Part shown: positions 11,701-61,478 of the stretch, in pieces
Layout of the letters: each line of letters begins with the position of its first letter
How positions within the stretch are numbered: the first letter of the stretch is position 1
Translations under genes and position numbers: made by a program
Source: Spizellomyces punctatus DAOM BR117
Taxonomy: Eukaryota
Assembly: GCA_000182565.2 (NCBI GenBank)
Contig: KQ257450.1
Strand: one strand, 5' to 3'
DNA length: 64,000 nt
Notes under the pieces: generated by a model
Database searches by the model: none
What the model was told of the DNA's origin: nothing
Seen by the model: the letters and a program-made list of their open reading frames with translations, nothing else

Positions 11701-13415
11701 CCTTACTACGATCGAAACCGAGATATTGGAGAACCTGTTCCCGAGCGCCACTTTCCAGCATCACTTTCAGGAACGACCACATCTCACGGTCTGTTTCGTT
11801 AACCGCATCCCCTTCATCATCTGCGGCGGCCCTTCGTTCACAGAAAGCTTTGTACGTATCTAGTGCGCCGTCTGCCATGACCGCCTCCAATTCGTCGGCT
11901 CTCTTAGCAAAGGTAGGCTCTGTTGGGACAGTGCGAACTGCTATCCACTTGCTTTGCGTGTCAAAGGACACCAATTTTCCACCGAAGCCAAATGTCGCAC
12001 CAACAGGACGACGCAGCCATTTTGGTGGTTGTCGTAGCGCAAATTGGGTCGCTGGTTGTGACTGTTGCTGTTGATAGCATCCGTCAAAAGGATCGTTACT
12101 AGTTGGCTGTGCCGCGGCCGGCTGCTCTTCCCCTTCCTCCGCCCCAGATGACTGCAGGGAGTGCACCGAGACATTACCATCAAAGCTCGAGATAGCGACC
12201 AGGTCAGGATTGCGCGGACACCATTGCACATCAAACGACCAGTTGTTGCTGCGTGCCAATTCACCAATCATTTCTCCAGTGGTTGGGTTCCACGCGAGCG
12301 TGGAGTTATCTTTTCCACTGGATAACAGCAAATCTGAGTCTTTTGGACACCATGAAACTGATAAAATTCCCTTTTGATGGCCTTGCAGACCCTGTAATTG
12401 CGGCATGTAAGGATGGGCAGGGTTATCAATAAAAAATAATCCATCTAACCTTTTGCGGAGCACTCGCATTTCGCAGATCCCAAACAAGTAATACGGGGGC
12501 GTTGTCATCCTCCGACGCAGTTACCAGTTGTGTAGCCTATCATTTGGGAAAAAAATATTAGTGATGCATACCACCTACAGTGTAAGGTCCAGAATGACAC
12601 CTTACCACAGCAGGATTCCATGCAAGCGCCGTGATAGGTTTACGCCCACCTGGATGAGCAAGCGTAATGATTTCCTTTTTGTGACGAAGATCCCACAGCA
12701 CTGTGTATCCGTTATTGCTAGCAGTCCCGAGGATGTATGCGACTTGTCGATTCCAAGCTAAGGTGCTAATGTCCTCTAATCTCTGAGATTTCGCTCCAGG
12801 GGTATACGGCTTTGTCGGATTTGTGAGATCCCAGATATAAATCTGCAAATCGATGGTAAGTGGACCACTCCGATCAACGGCGCCTTTACAAATCCCTAAC
12901 CTCTCCGTCTGTGGCACCAGATGCCAGCAAGTTGCCCTGGACAGGGCTAAAGTCCAGCCCACGAACAGGTCCACCATGAATAGAGTGTCGCATCAACAGC
13001 GATTTTTGTGAATCACCATCCATGATAGCAGCTGGGTTCCAAAGGTCCAGCTCCCCGTTTTCCATTCCACTCGCAAGGACTCCAAGAGGTCGAGTAGTGT
13101 CCCCCGGCAGTGCACCCCACGCAAGCCGATTGAATCTATTAAGGTAAAGATTAACTATCTGGAAAGGAGTCCAAAGCCCACCATTACGTACCTGGCGCTA
13201 CACGTAATACCACCCAGCCGTCTCAAATTTTTGGAGCCGGGCGTTCCTGGTTGAGCGGCCAAGTTTAAGTCAAAGATTTCGAGTTCAGCAGCGGTGCTGA
13301 AAGATGCATCTAGAGCCCCAGCAACGGTTCCAGTCGCGAGAAGGGGCCCATGGGTGTCATGCTGTCCTGGCGACCATGCCAATGTTGACGTTCGATCGAT
13401 GTATCGCAACCTCAT
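8782..13415 (-). CDS. SEC31: COPII outer coat protein Sec31 (WD40 propeller, ACE1, Pro-rich linker, C-terminal domain), multi-exon
   Basis: N-terminus MRLRYIDRTSTLAWSP...GALDASFST, WD repeats (GHQKGILSVSWCPKDSDLLLSSGKDN), PPKWLRRPVGATFGFGGKLVSF, TGFNDPP, and YPPGDRSHIP and WMLVVKRLI in the C-terminal domain. Canonical introns. Confidence 0.95.
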
Positions 13416-15400
13416 CGTGGATTACAGTAACCCAGTGTCCAATGTGCAGAATATGCGACTCTGTATACTTCTAAAAGGGGTTGAGAGAACATGTTTTGTC
13501 AGTCATTGTTGCACGTGAAATCCCAACAAACTACGTTCAAAATGCCGGATGACATGCAGCTGCAGCACAGGAATTCCGCAGTCCCTTGAACGTTAAAAGA
13601 CATATAGGTCTAATACAAACCTCCTTTGCTAGCGTTGGAGTGATTCGTTGTCTTCCGTTACCGCACAAGGATCCTTTGCACACAACACACACGCACACAC
13701 AGCGGCGCGACCAGATGGATGGGGGAAAAGACCAACGCGACGTGGACGGATTCTCCCTCGCGTGCTTTAAGTAGGCAGGACGTTCGTCTACCCTGAAAGG
13801 GAAAGGCGAGATGCAAGTCGTCGTTCTTTGATGCAACAAAGGTTGGTTTCGAAACTGCAACCCAAAAGCTGGTCGTTGCGCTGTTGGGTGACCCGGTTGA
13901 CACGATGACTGAACTGTTGACAAGCCACAGCTCCTTACCACAAATGGAAATCCACGCCACGATGAACGGCATTTTACAGGTTGAGGCAAGTGATTGGTCG
14001 ATGCGCTTGGAAGTCTTGACTAGGAAACATGTCTAGAGTTTCCTTCTGGACAAGAATATTTAGAAAGTGTAGGTCGTATTCACAGTCAAGCTATAGAATC
14101 GTCGAGGAGATATACGTATTTAGCAGACTCCTGCTATCAGCTTAAACATTGTAAAGTCATGCTCAAGTAGAAGTTTCACACCTCTGTTGAGGAAAAAGTT
14201 CATGTCATTACCAAAAAATAACATAGACATTCGGTTCCCTTCGCAAGCTTTCCAATCTAAAAGCCGTAGCACAGTATTGGCCTCCAAAAAAGACGGTTCT
14301 TTCCATATGCAGCTCTCAAGAAGGCAACATTGCAAAAATTTCTGAACTTGGATGCTTCCAATATAGAGAAGTTAAGATGTCACCCAATCATTTGCTACTA
14401 TACGGCTAGTGAGCTTATATCTTTGTTTAGCCACAGTATTTGAATCTGATCTTATGATAGAAACAACGCTTGAAGCAACTTGATCAGCATCGGAATCATA
14501 ACGTGCTTGTCCCACCTTCATCCTTGCGTTACCTTCAGTGCATTTGCCTACATCTAGCAAGTGTGCAAGGCATCAGTGCAGCTAGTTCTTTATTATATAT
14601 GACGCTATTCAAATCCCCAAGTATCTCTCCGCTTGCATGTATGCAGACCTACCAGGCCAGCACCGCCGTGTCACCTACCAGGACCGATATGTCCGCACAC
14701 GTTTTCAGCAGATCATTTCACGTTTGTGAGCCCCATACCATGTAGATTGGACGAGACTTTTTTTGGTTTGACCAGCAGTACTCCCAGGAACCATCATTGT
14801 CACCACTTGCAGTACTCCGAACCTGCGTCATTGCTACCATAGGCCTCACTCACGGGCCACCTGGACTGGCAGAATCTCTCTCAACGCTGTACGCTATATA
14901 CTATCTGGACCATCCGTGCAGCACTTTCTGCAAATGGGTGTCCAACCGACAAACTGGATTTTGTAACTATGACTTAGATCTACATTTCGCATCATCCAGT
15001 AACAAGCATCATCATTGAAATTTATAATCACGTGGATAAACAACATGTTTTACCTGTCAAAATAAGGTGACCTTCTGGCCGTCGTGTCTATAATGTGCAT
15101 ATATTGTGTAAATCGTATTGGAATGCCACGCCCCATGCGGGCTATACCGGTAGCAATAGATACTTGTTAAATGGGAAACATCCGATTTTTGACAGGTGAA
15201 TGAGATGGCAGTCGGAAAATGATTCAAGACAGCCAAGAGGTTATGACAGGTCAAGTCGTTTGTGTTGATGCAACAAAGCAAAGCCCGATGGCAAGAAGGA
15301 AACTCAATTATCTTAAAAGTCGAGAGTTCAAAATGTTCTTCCCCACAAGCCCTTTTTTTCGGAATTATTATTTCTTTGCCAAACTACCATCATAATTGGG

Positions 15401-17040
15401 ATGTTGTCTAGATATGCTCCCCGGCCGATTAGGATGGGATTAGGCCTATTTCCTAGTTCCTCCACCTGTGCATCCAGTCAACGCCGTCTATTTCTTCGGG
15501 AGCATGCAGCCATCCAAGCTTCGAGCTCTCTATTATTGGCTCGACAGATTCTCCCCCCTCGAAGTTTTTCGGTTGCGGTTCCTCTTCTGAGAAGCAATGG
15601 CAGCCGTAAACAATCCGAGCTACCTGAATTACCACCGGGGTAAGCCCATCATAGTTTGCTTATATCACATTGAAATGCTTAAAACTTTTGGTCTTTCTTT
15701 CATAGATTCACTTGGCCTGTACCACCTGGAAGCGAAGATCTCCCTCCACCTTCCAATCAATCCTATTGGAAGAAAGTACTCAAGCCGAATTTTGAACATA
15801 TTTACAAAGATAATTATCTGGACGTAAGCGTGAACTTTCCGGGTACCCAAACCTGGCCGGTGAGTTGCACTTGCTCCGAGAATTCAATTATACGTTCATC
15901 AAACGGTTCGTGGCTAAATGTGGGATCATGCAGTCGATGAAATACTACAATCACATGAACTCTTACATCAAGAATTTGGAAATGCCGATCACAAATCAAA
16001 ATGCAATTACGGGATATTGGAAACGATTTTTAAAATTGTACAAGGAGATAGACCGGATACAGTAAGTGGGGTTTAATTGCTGCCGGCCAAATGATGTTTG
16101 GCGCTGACGATATTATTTTAGCCTCACATTGCGTCGACCAAATAATGAACGCTGCTATCCAGACATGATGTGGCAGGATAGTCCCTTAGATTTGACAGTT
16201 GGCGAGGTAAGGGATTAACAAACCTTAAATATTTTTCAGGCGCTTACTGATATGAACAATCCCCAGTTCAAACCAAAGGGTCACCAACCTATCGAAGGCC
16301 AAACGCAATGCTTTTTATATGCACAGTATGGTGTATGGGACAAAATCGCCCGCAACTTGTGGGCTTCCTATTGCTGGGACCTCGCAGGGAACAGGACCTT
16401 GACCGCCACACAAATCGACAAGATCTCAAAACAAGCGATGGAGCAAGTCTTTGCAGACTTGAAAGGCAGAGTAGTCGTTATGGTAATTCATGTTCATGAA
16501 GAGGTGGAGATTTTGGTCGCCCCACAATGTCAGCTTCTTTTGGATTACCTGACCGGTCAGAATATGACCAAACCCAGAAACATTGTTCCGAAACCGAGCA
16601 GAAAATACCATTGGCTTAACGATGCAGATGAAATATATCGTGCTTTGACGGACGCGGTGGAGCAGGGATCGAACGTGGTGAAGAGCGAGGAGGCCGCCAT
16701 TCAGAGTCGTATTCTGGCATTTAAAGAGGGGCAGCGTTCTACGGTATTGGAAGGCGAAAAGACAAAGGCACAGAAGGCATCCCAGCCGAAAAAGACCGCC
16801 AAGTACGAGAACAGTGTGGCTAAGACAAAGGCACTGACACCGCCCCGGCCGAAGAATGCCACCAAATACAAAAACGCTGTAGCTCCAAAAATGTTGTGCG
16901 AACCCACTGCTGCTGTCATTCGTGTGCCGGAAAAAAAGAAGAGATGGGCCCAGATCGCCACCGAGACGTGGTTCTTGACAGCATCTCTAGCGTGCACGAC
17001 ACAAGCGACCTTGAAACTCTCGGAACTTTTGGGGAACTAA
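15401..17040 (+). CDS. Orphan 5-exon protein (~459 aa) with mitochondrial-presequence-like N-terminus and PD-(D/E)xK nuclease-like motif
   Basis: Exons 15401-15639, 15706-15859 (alternative donor at 15824), 15934-16061, 16122-16206 and 16267-17040 splice in frame through GT-AG introns. The spliced product contains YPDMMWQDSPLDLTVGE|FKPKGHQPIEGQTQCFLYA. Confidence 0.7.
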
Positions 17041-17391
17041 AGCTACCAAGCTCGTAGCGTTAGATGTATTACTTATGTGATTTAAACTGCGGCATTTAAT
17101 GGAGGAGGGCTCTGGTAGATTAAAGCAATGTCGAGGAAGCCAGTTATTCGACAGCATATATTATTTTCTTATTTACTATGACACTATGTAACTATATATT
17201 ATTCAATGACTGTTGATACTGGCTAGATCTCTCGTTGGCTATCTTTGCATGTATCTTCCTTCTTTTGCCTCGCACATGTCAAAAGATTAAGGAATAGAGC
17301 ACACAAGTGGTAATAGACACGTTCTGAAAATATCATTAAAAGGTCCAAGAATTAATACAGGTGAATTTACAATGCATATCTAGAATAAGTA

Positions 17392-19553
<2,162 letters not shown>

Positions 19554-60680: not shown

Positions 60681-61478
60681 CCAATCTCTGTAGATACGCA
60701 TGCTGCAAGATTAACCGCCAGAATGATATCGTTATGACATTTGTAGATGGACAGATCTGGTTGAGCATCCTGTCATGGGCAGTCATTTCCTCCGTGCCAA
60801 GCAGCCAAGCAGGGATCTCTTGGTAGGGATGTTAAAGGGAGCCTCCCTCGAAAGGGCGCTGTCGTGGGTTTGTCAATTGGCCATAGTAATGCCACAGGAT
60901 GGCCATAGTGCCTGTGTAGGCGAGCAGGGCCATAGAACATGTCATGGCCTACATGGAATGCAAATTGCTTGGGCATGTTGAAAAGTCGCGGTGCCTCTTG
61001 TTGCTTCGTGTGGGGTGGGCTGTGTGGACGTGCAAAAAAACGTCATATTCTTGGCAAAATCTCTTGTACTCTAGACACCCGCCATGGCCTTCCCTAGCTC
61101 ATAGCCACCCCGTAGTAAACTCTCTTTCTCACAAGCTCTGTCGTTCAAAGCCCCAGAGAGACCCCGCATGTCATTCCCCCCCGTCATAGCCTCGTTCTCT
61201 CGTTTCTCACGTCATTCTCCCATTCTTTTATCTGATAACGAGCCGGGATCTTTCCTTGCCAACTACAGGTTGTGGGGCGCAGTATTACAATTTTTGCACT
61301 AAAATTCATGACATGGGTTCCCATGCCGCTTTCAGAGAGAGAAGAACTCCCAATTTGGGAATGAAACAGATGCATGGATTACGTAATAAGAGCGTTTCAT
61401 AGTGCCAATGCAATGCCAAAACGGACGTTGAACCGCATGGGAAATCTCTCTGTCTACACCTGTTTCCCCCCTTTTTCC

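What the first reader, a model, noticed from the sequence alone, without database searches (positions are those of the whole stretch)
15401..17040. Cryptic restriction-endonuclease-fold (PD-(D/E)xK) protein with a mitochondrial-presequence-like N-terminus, visible only after splicing
Seen: five exons join in frame by canonical introns into ~459 aa. Removing intron 16207-16266 assembles YPD-x13-EFK-x11-QCFLY, with the E and K split across the exon junction, so no single ORF shows it. The first ~70 aa are Arg/Ser/Leu/Ala-rich and almost acid-free, with RSFS (MLSRYAPRPIRMGLG...PPRSFSVAVPLLRS). Established: PD..(D/E)xK followed by a helical QxxxY is the catalytic signature of the RecB-like/REase nuclease fold, and such N-termini are typical of mitochondrial targeting peptides. 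Known mitochondrial members of this fold include MGME1, Exo5 and Pet127; this sequence does not look like any of them to me. Inference: a lineage-specific organellar nuclease (mtDNA maintenance or elimination, RNA processing, or a domesticated selfish/CRN-type REase), in an accessory-looking interval between SEC31 and the MFS gene.
Basis: partly seen in the sequence, partly recalled or inferred. Interest (0 to 1): 0.72.

Follow-up and report, generated by a model that had tools for sequence, protein, structure and literature searches.

The report
Orphan chytrid restriction-fold nuclease gene
A soil chytrid fungus has a single-copy, five-exon gene with no detectable relatives whose product probably folds like a bacterial restriction nuclease and may be imported into mitochondria, but neither its activity, its location nor even its splicing has been shown.

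Summary
The five exons are real and give 459 aa. The same exon chain is already in NCBI as the uncharacterised SPPG_00470 of Spizellomyces punctatus, started at Met12. The gene is single-copy, and no true homologue turned up in any protein or DNA search.

The nuclease fold is likely. ESM Atlas neighbours with a named cluster are HSDR_N, MmeI_N, PDDEXK or FunK1 types (TM up to 0.60 by query). The spacing D-x13-E-x-K-x11-Q-x3-Y matches 34 of 40 cyanobacterial stand-alone HSDR_N-like proteins, against 19 of 100,000 shuffles. Profile searches and my AlphaFold models did not confirm it.

The presequence-like N-terminus is unusual (7 of 257 control frames), but import is untested, and a Met12 start plus a C-terminal KKKR allow a nuclear form. 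One RNA run shows only trace reads and no junctions. It is not Pet127 and lacks Exo5's cysteine pattern. 'Accessory interval' is unsupported.

Verdict: probable new orphan PD-(D/E)xK member; mitochondrial role about even odds.

The parts
15049..15254 (.). Three copies of a 14-nt element TTWTGACAGGTNAA (15049-15062 minus, 15187-15200 plus, 15241-15254 plus), 150-350 nt upstream of the ATG; possible transcription-factor sites
   Evidence: 3 of the 6 exact genome-wide matches are here (pattern built from these copies; reversed control 2). Function not shown.
15401..15639 (+). Exon 1 (Met1 at 15401; Met12 at 15434 is the annotated start)
15401..15610 (+). Presequence-like N-terminus, residues 1-70 (10 R, 1 K, 1 acidic; RSFS)
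   Evidence: 7 of 257 control Met-started frames equal it in acid count and net charge, 2 of 257 also carry an RxF[SA]-type motif. Coding score ambiguous (-0.10).
15640..15705 (+). Intron 1 (66 nt, GTAAGC..TAG)
   Evidence: same intron implied by SPPG_00470
15706..15859 (+). Exon 2 (in-frame alternative donor at 15824)
15860..15933 (+). Intron 2 (74 nt, GTGAGT..CAG)
15934..16061 (+). Exon 3 (predicted first core helix)
   Evidence: helix in the low-confidence models
16062..16121 (+). Intron 3 (60 nt, GTAAGT..TAG)
16122..16206 (+). Exon 4: carries D188 (16162-16164) and E202 (16204-16206)
16207..16266 (+). Intron 4 (60 nt, GTAAGG..CAG) splitting E202 from F203-K204; in-frame stop if retained
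   Evidence: no junction reads
16267..17040 (+). Exon 5: K204 (16270-16272), Q216 (16306-16308), Y220 (16318-16320), helical insertion, strand hairpin, long helix, basic tail, stop
15851..16683 (+). Predicted restriction-endonuclease-fold domain (residues 129-341, introns included)
   Evidence: ESM Atlas structure neighbours over P0001 118-330; motif spacing
16759..16884 (+). In-frame 2 x 63-nt tandem duplication in a Lys-rich tail (73% nt identity; 8 identical, 3 synonymous, 10 non-synonymous codons)
16933..16944 (+). KKKR, residues 425-428, a monopartite NLS-like motif (motif type recalled)

Best explanation
An ordinary-looking, single-copy nuclear gene encodes a stand-alone PD-(D/E)xK nuclease of the QxxxY (HsdR/RecB) type.

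Shown: the exon chain, the motif and its spacing, orphan status within the searches made, and the N-terminal composition. Likely (about 85%): the restriction-endonuclease fold.

Inferred: D188 and E202 bind Mg2+, K204 completes the active site, and Q216/Y220 hold the domain on non-specific DNA. The Lys-rich repeated tail adds DNA affinity. The gene comes from the fast-evolving pool of eukaryotic conflict/selfish REases. It has gained an N-terminal presequence, so the Met1 product enters mitochondria and cuts mtDNA non-specifically.

It is probably made only at one stage or condition (trace reads in one run; three repeated upstream elements), which fits mtDNA turnover or elimination better than daily upkeep. 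A Met12 start could give a second, non-mitochondrial form.
For: Fold: all ten structure neighbours of the Atlas model are either unnamed or belong to MmeI_N, HSDR_N/HSDR_N_2, PDDEXK_1 or Pkinase_fungal clusters. TM by query is 0.43-0.60 for the domain, 7 of 10 at 0.50 or more. The top named feature hits are HSDR_N clusters at 0.85.

Motif register: 34 of 40 cyanobacterial stand-alone HSDR_N-like proteins have exactly D-x13-E-x-K-x11-Q-x3-Y. Chance is 19 of 100,000 shuffles and 0 of 256 decoy frames. QxxxY just after motif III marks RecB/HsdR nucleases (PMC2475608, abstract and passages).

Gene integrity: an open frame over five exons, coding-like score, CpG o/e 0.89 against a window value of 0.91.

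N-terminus: rarer than 3% among control frames. It is similar in kind to the Arg-rich, acid-free start of a frame upstream of this genome's Pet127 match (one control, judged by eye, start not verified).
Against: The Atlas rows are all 'under the bar' for naming a family, and feature scores under 0.9 are leads only. A third of shuffled proteins also get ten same-clan hits.

A profile of the 40 cyanobacterial proteins ranks the domain 206th among 1,259 sequences scored. Non-motif columns are no better than chance (p = 0.42), and hhalign gives 0.3% in a wrong register. Pfam, PHROGs, NCBIfam, PADLOC and PDB sequence searches are empty. By eye there is no clear motif I Glu at the start of the first helix.

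No homologue exists to show conservation. The annotated start is Met12, which has the stronger context (A at -3, G at +4), and its first 30 residues look less like a presequence (net +2 against +5). KKKR suggests nuclear import. Exon 1 does not score clearly as coding.

In run X5 plus-strand depth over the gene is 0-0.54 against 253-545 for the neighbouring MFS 3' end. This could mean the gene is simply silent.
Confidence: 0.33

Rival explanations
1. Same fold, but a nuclear or cytoplasmic conflict/selfish-type REase. Translation starts at Met12, or the N-terminus is just a basic disordered extension. KKKR and the basic tail take it to chromatin, as for Crinkler-related and FunK1-associated REases.
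For: The annotated start is Met12, with the stronger context. KKKR lies at 425-428. The nearest unfiltered Atlas feature hits are unnamed fungal clusters (0.86-0.87), and structure neighbours include Basidiomycota, Mucoromycota and Pkinase_fungal clusters. Other REase-like frames occur in this genome (L019-L022, by eye). REase domains act as nuclear toxins in CRN proteins (PMC5289972, passages).
Against: No Crinkler header, NTPase or kinase domain. No paralogues, terminal repeats or CpG loss. No similarity to the two in-genome REase-like frames tested. The N-terminal pattern is rare by chance.
Confidence: 0.3
2. A silent or decaying orphan: a real gene model of REase ancestry that no longer makes a functional enzyme.
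For: Trace reads only in one run. No orthologue was found in about 5.8 billion clustered proteins or 1.84 billion representatives. The tail repeat units differ mostly at non-synonymous positions.
Against: All five motif residues, four canonical introns and a 459-codon frame are intact. Coding score is retained and there is no CpG loss. The RNA evidence is one 3'-end-type library read at about 6%.
Confidence: 0.2
3. A mitochondrial RNA-processing nuclease, for example the unidentified nuclease that removes mismatched 5' nucleotides in S. punctatus mitochondrial tRNA 5' editing.
For: S. punctatus edits mt tRNAs at the 5' end, and as of that 2014 review the nuclease was unknown (PMC4284800, passages). 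PD-(D/E)xK folds include RNA 5' nucleases such as Pet127 and Rai1 (PMC3424549, introduction and passages). The N-terminus is presequence-like.
Against: Editing occurs in several chytrids and amoebozoans, yet this protein has no detectable homologue. An editing enzyme should be constitutive, and reads are at trace level. Its neighbours are DNA-cutting HsdR/MmeI types. Pet127 is present elsewhere.
Confidence: 0.05
4. The nuclease reading is wrong: the motif is a coincidence or depends on a junction that is not used, and the protein has another fold.
For: No profile, family or PDB hit. Single-sequence AlphaFold left the motif region unfolded (pLDDT 34 and 39). No junction reads. An alternative AG exists at 16239.
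Against: The exact spacing match is 19 of 100,000 by chance. The Atlas neighbours are consistent. The annotation uses the same junction. The alternative acceptor gives an atypically short 33-nt intron.
Confidence: 0.12

Closest known systems
HSDR_N / HSDR_N_2 (PF04313, PF13588): nuclease domain of type I HsdR, especially the stand-alone ~210-aa cyanobacterial proteins
   Same: Identical D-x13-E-x-K-x11-Q-x3-Y register (34 of 40); nearest named Atlas feature hits and structure neighbours; stand-alone domain without a helicase.
   Different: No detectable sequence similarity outside the five motif residues; an insertion of roughly 40 residues after the QxxxY helix (by eye); eukaryotic introns, long N-terminal extension and basic tail; no modification partner nearby.
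Eukaryotic CR-REases (Crinkler-related) and FunK1 kinase-associated REase-like domains (Zhang et al. 2016, seen only through PMC5289972 and PMC6131194 passages)
   Same: Eukaryotic, intron-containing, fast-diverging REase fold; fungal clusters and a Pkinase_fungal cluster are Atlas neighbours; NLS-like motif.
   Different: No ubiquitin-like header, NTPase or kinase; single copy; presequence-like N-terminus.
Mitochondrial PD-(D/E)xK nucleases Pet127 (PF08634), Exo5 (PF09810) and MGME1 (MGME1 recalled)
   Same: Predicted fold class; N-terminal extension that resembles a presequence.
   Different: No Pfam match to them; Pet127 is encoded elsewhere in this genome; no Fe-S cysteine cluster as in Exo5 (Cys at 23, 185, 217, 238, 290, 413, 445); these enzymes are conserved, this one is an orphan. 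Exo5 itself was not found in this genome (introns may hide it).
MmeI_N (PF20464), type IIL restriction enzyme nuclease domain
   Same: Atlas structure neighbour, TM 0.51 by query and 0.62 by target over 138 residues.
   Different: No methyltransferase or specificity domain; no sequence hit.

Membership tests
PD-(D/E)xK superfamily | PD...(D/E)xK catalytic residues in order | tested here: met
   P187-D188, E202, K204 after splicing; depends on the intron 4 junction, which is annotated but not seen in reads
PD-(D/E)xK superfamily | [quoted passage not shown] | tested here: inconclusive
   Atlas model (pTM 0.57) matches REase-type clusters at TM up to 0.60 by query, all under the naming bar; my AlphaFold models were too poor to test
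PD-(D/E)xK superfamily | Catalytic residues conserved among homologues | not testable with these tools
   No true homologue found
PD-(D/E)xK superfamily | Metal-dependent nuclease activity | not testable with these tools
   Needs an assay
RecB/HsdR-type (QxxxY) nucleases | QxxxY just C-terminal to motif III (PMC2475608) | tested here: met
   Q216/Y220, 11 residues after K204, same spacing as 34 of 40 cyanobacterial HSDR_N-like proteins; helicity not shown
RecB/HsdR-type (QxxxY) nucleases | Motif I acidic residue in the first core helix | tested here: inconclusive
   By eye the start of the helix has Gln/Asn where the cyanobacterial family has Glu; no reliable alignment
HSDR_N (PF04313) | Profile match at the family cut-off | tested here: not met
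   No Pfam hit; no candidate in the genome; custom profile rank 206 of 1,259
Crinkler / CR effectors | N-terminal ubiquitin-like header, usually with NTPase or kinase beside the REase | tested here: not met
   No Pfam family on P0001; PF20147 gave one sub-threshold match elsewhere, a ubiquitin-like gene by eye
Pet127 | PF08634 match / orthology | tested here: not met
   PF08634 matches five exon pieces on contig C3, none here
Exo5 | PF09810 match and four Fe-S cysteines (pattern recalled) | tested here: not met
   No match; no clustered cysteines
Mitochondrial presequence proteins | Arg-rich, acid-poor, amphipathic N-terminus with an R-2/R-3 site | tested here: met
   Net +10 and 1 acidic residue in 70; hydrophobic moment 0.83 at residues 2-12; RSFS. 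Holds for Met1, weaker for Met12.
Mitochondrial presequence proteins | Import and cleavage; use of Met1 | not testable with these tools
   No targeting predictor, 5'-end data or localisation available

The most novel reading that the evidence does not exclude
A restriction-type nuclease from the eukaryotic selfish/conflict pool has been fitted with a mitochondrial presequence in one chytrid lineage. It is switched on at a particular stage through the three TGACAGGT promoter elements and destroys or filters mtDNA: a nuclear-encoded, stage-specific mitochondrial restriction-like enzyme outside the MGME1/Exo5/Pet127 families. A less likely version is that it is the missing nuclease of mitochondrial tRNA 5' editing.
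Probability: 0.2. Interest if true: 0.75.

Novelty: new member of a known kind. Interest (0 to 1): 0.4.

Why it matters
If only the fold is right, this assigns a probable biochemical class to an unannotated orphan gene and adds one more divergent REase to a genome that seems to hold several; that is of modest interest. If import and activity are right, it would be a further, independent route by which a PD-(D/E)xK nuclease entered mitochondria, with a possible role in mtDNA turnover or inheritance. S. punctatus can be transformed (recalled), so a GFP fusion and a knockout would settle this directly. The lack of homologues limits how far any result would generalise.

Tried and rejected
Homologue searches. 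The exon 5 query (150-478 aa, 835 candidates) and P0001 residues 60-335 (246-784 aa, 758 candidates) returned only P0001. phmmer over 1.84 billion representatives returned P0001 and P0002. I rejected P0002 as a tandem-repeat protein whose weak scores add up. Metagenome, viral and prokaryote contigs and phage and plasmid records gave nothing. Longer and shorter length bands of the 90% database were not searched with this protein.

Family and PDB sequence scans were empty.

An attempt to build a fungal REase profile from an in-genome REase-like frame (L022) found no hits. That frame is 457 aa and outside the searched 141-450 band, so the result is uninformative. The cyanobacterial profile was built from 40 regions that I picked from the roughly 150 matches, favouring open frames of about 200-240 aa. 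It did not detect the protein. High-scoring decoys were runs of X.

Synteny: 6 SEC31-like metagenome loci (33-54% identity) showed no MFS or P0001 match, so it could not be tested.

Mobile-element reading: single-copy DNA, no convincing terminal repeats, normal CpG. Structured RNA: no Rfam match at E <= 1 in 13400-17500.

Expression: no RNA holder listed. Contigs of runs X1 and X2 cross introns unspliced, but their kind is not on record, so I did not use them for or against splicing. X6 laid nothing.

Regulon: the three other genome matches to the upstream element are isolated (one at a likely splice acceptor, one in coding sequence, one intergenic), so no regulon could be assigned. The bacterial promoter scan is not applicable.

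Literature: 'SPPG_00470' is in 0 papers and in 0 of 5 supplementary files of PMC5364385. 'Spizellomyces + mitochondrial targeting + endonuclease' gave 3 listings, none about this gene by title. Zhang et al. 2016 is not held, and its supplements or closed bioRxiv supplements may list this protein.

Full report
Observation. Exons 15401-15639, 15706-15859, 15934-16061, 16122-16206 and 16267-17040 join through four GT-AG introns of 60-74 nt into 459 codons. A search with the exon 5 frame returned one protein, SPPG_00470 of Spizellomyces punctatus DAOM BR117 (P0001, 448 aa, labelled uncharacterised). The spliced form is therefore already annotated with the same introns, only without a function. D188 and E202 lie in exon 4; K204, Q216 and Y220 lie in exon 5. 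Retaining intron 4 gives a stop. The alternative acceptor at 16239 would leave a 33-nt intron, while a branch-like CTGAT sits 20 nt before the 16266 acceptor, as in introns 2 and 3 (20 and 18 nt). A three-periodic coding model trained on long frames of the window scores the joined frame best of six (0.011 against -0.18 to -0.29). Four control exon pieces scored 0.06-0.07 and intergenic pieces had a median near -0.22. Residues 1-70 alone are ambiguous at -0.10.

Expression. No RNA run is listed as holding the stretch. One raw RNA run with the same species label (X5, about 6 in 100 read) behaves like a 3'-end library: depth 253-545 at the 3' end of the neighbouring MFS gene, with poly(A) tails at 17308-17311. 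Plus-strand depth over this gene and the 230 nt behind it is 0-0.54, and no junction in the gene is seen. In that sample the gene is at most trace-expressed, and such a library cannot test the junctions.

Relatives. The gene is single-copy by protein and DNA search of the genome. No homologue was found among 835 and 758 word-sharing candidates of the 90% database. phmmer over 1.84 billion representatives gave 2 hits: itself and a tandem-repeat artefact. Metagenome, viral, prokaryote, phage and plasmid DNA gave none. Pfam, PHROGs, NCBIfam, PADLOC and PDB sequences gave nothing for P0001.

Fold, for. The ESM Atlas holds a model of P0001 (pTM 0.57, pLDDT 0.58). For residues 118-330 of P0001 its ten structure neighbours have TM 0.43-0.60 by query. 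They are unnamed cyanobacterial, Basidiomycota and Mucoromycota clusters, plus clusters carrying MmeI_N, HSDR_N, HSDR_N_2, PDDEXK_1 or Pkinase_fungal. The best named feature hits are cyanobacterial stand-alone HSDR_N clusters at 0.85 (whole protein). To test this lead on real sequences I took 40 stand-alone HSDR_N-like frames from 22 cyanobacterial genomes, chosen from about 150 matches. Of these, 34 have the exact register D-x13-E-x-K-x11-Q-x3-Y and 3 more have 13/10. The chytrid protein has 13/11. That exact pattern occurs in 19 of 100,000 shuffles of P0001 and in 0 of 256 decoy frames. QxxxY just after motif III is the RecB/HsdR signature and is thought to hold the domain on non-specific DNA (PMC2475608, abstract and passages).

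Fold, against. The tool marks every Atlas row as under the bar for naming a family, and scores under 0.9 as leads. The cyanobacterial profile does not detect the domain (rank 206 of 1,259). The non-motif columns of the motif block score no better than chance (p = 0.42), and hhalign gives 0.3% in another register. My two single-sequence AlphaFold models failed (pLDDT 34 and 39), so the fold searches were meaningless. By eye the first core helix lacks a clear motif I Glu. Near-absence of sequence similarity is normal in this superfamily (PMC3424549, introduction). I put the fold at about 85%. It works like an HsdR/RecB-type nuclease domain, but it is not a member of HSDR_N by profile.

N-terminus and tail. 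Residues 1-70 have 10 Arg, 1 Lys, 1 acidic residue, a hydrophobic moment of 0.83 at residues 2-12, and RSFS. Of 257 Met-started open frames of 70 codons from the window and own-genome loci, 7 match both acid count and net charge, and 2 of those also have an RxF[SA]-type motif. That favours a presequence but does not prove one; no targeting predictor was available. Against it, the annotation starts at Met12, whose context is stronger and whose first 30 residues have net +2 rather than +5. The C-terminal part has a Lys-rich 2 x 21-residue duplication and KKKR at 425-428, which could direct a nuclear form. I put mitochondrial import near even odds.

Known mitochondrial relatives. Pet127 is encoded on another contig. 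Exo5 was not found in the genome, but this protein has no clustered cysteines, so it is not a diverged Exo5 by that criterion (pattern recalled). S. punctatus edits mitochondrial tRNAs at the 5' end with a nuclease that was unidentified in a 2014 review (PMC4284800, passages). An orphan, barely expressed gene fits that widespread process poorly.

Setting. The interval is single-copy, has no convincing terminal repeats, no Rfam match and normal CpG content (0.89 against 0.91). 'Accessory' is therefore not supported, and synteny could not be tested. There is no Crinkler header, NTPase or kinase. Earlier scan notes report other restriction-fold genes in this genome. Following one led to twister-like loci with REase-like frames (fold by eye); two tested are not similar to P0001. 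A new feature is three copies of a 14-nt element, TTWTGACAGGTNAA, 150-350 nt upstream of the ATG. They are 3 of 6 exact matches in 24 Mb, though the pattern was built from them. The core resembles a TALE-homeodomain site (recalled), which would fit regulated expression. No regulon could be assigned.

Mechanism and odds. Best reading (0.33): an active, conditionally expressed, non-specific DNase imported into mitochondria from the Met1 start. Rivals: a nuclear or cytoplasmic conflict-type REase (0.30), a silent or decaying orphan (0.20), a wrong fold or junction (0.12), and a mitochondrial RNA-editing nuclease (0.05).

Novelty. The locus tag is in 0 papers of the library and in 0 of 5 supplements of one chytrid genome paper. 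Zhang et al. 2016 and its supplements could not be seen and may list it. I class it as a new, orphan member of a known superfamily, interest 0.40. It would deserve about 0.75 if mitochondrial import and a stage-specific mtDNA role were shown.

Noticed in passing
window 15049-15254 (and a 11-of-12 inverted match at 17273-17284): Three 14-nt TTWTGACAGGTNAA elements just upstream of the gene, half of all exact matches in the genome; a similar inverted 12-mer lies downstream of the stop. Possibly homeodomain-type sites or remnants of element ends.
   Followed up: partly
window 15333-15395: A 20-codon upstream ORF ends 5 nt before the ATG at 15401; it could dampen translation if transcribed.
   Followed up: no
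window 15824: A strong in-frame alternative donor (GTAAGC) would remove 12 codons from exon 2.
   Followed up: no
L018-L022 (G000 C11:483761, C5:1241447, C4:555857, C2:837258, C24:32257): Five twister-P1-like matches below the gathering score. Four lie just downstream of frames that look REase-like or related by eye (L019-L021 one family, L022 another); the three frames scanned have no Pfam hit. L019-L021 also carry tandem ~60-130 nt repeats.
   Followed up: partly
L031 441-1214 minus (G000 C1 near 558523): Two TGACAGGT copies 32 nt apart lie upstream of a frame with an RLEYAKFKV motif that resembles the Whi5/Nrm1 motif (recalled).
   Followed up: no
G000 whole genome: No Exo5 (PF09810) candidate was found, while Pet127 is present; introns may hide Exo5.
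   Followed up: no
L220-L259 (cyanobacterial genomes G001-G022): Stand-alone ~210-aa HSDR_N-like nucleases occur in several copies per cyanobacterial genome, with a very constant motif register.
   Followed up: partly
window 17308-17311 and 17682-17751: RNA reads place the MFS gene's poly(A) sites at 17308-17311 and confirm a 68-nt intron near 17682-17751.
   Followed up: no
window 60879-60935: CTATGGCC occurs three times within about 60 nt.
   Followed up: no
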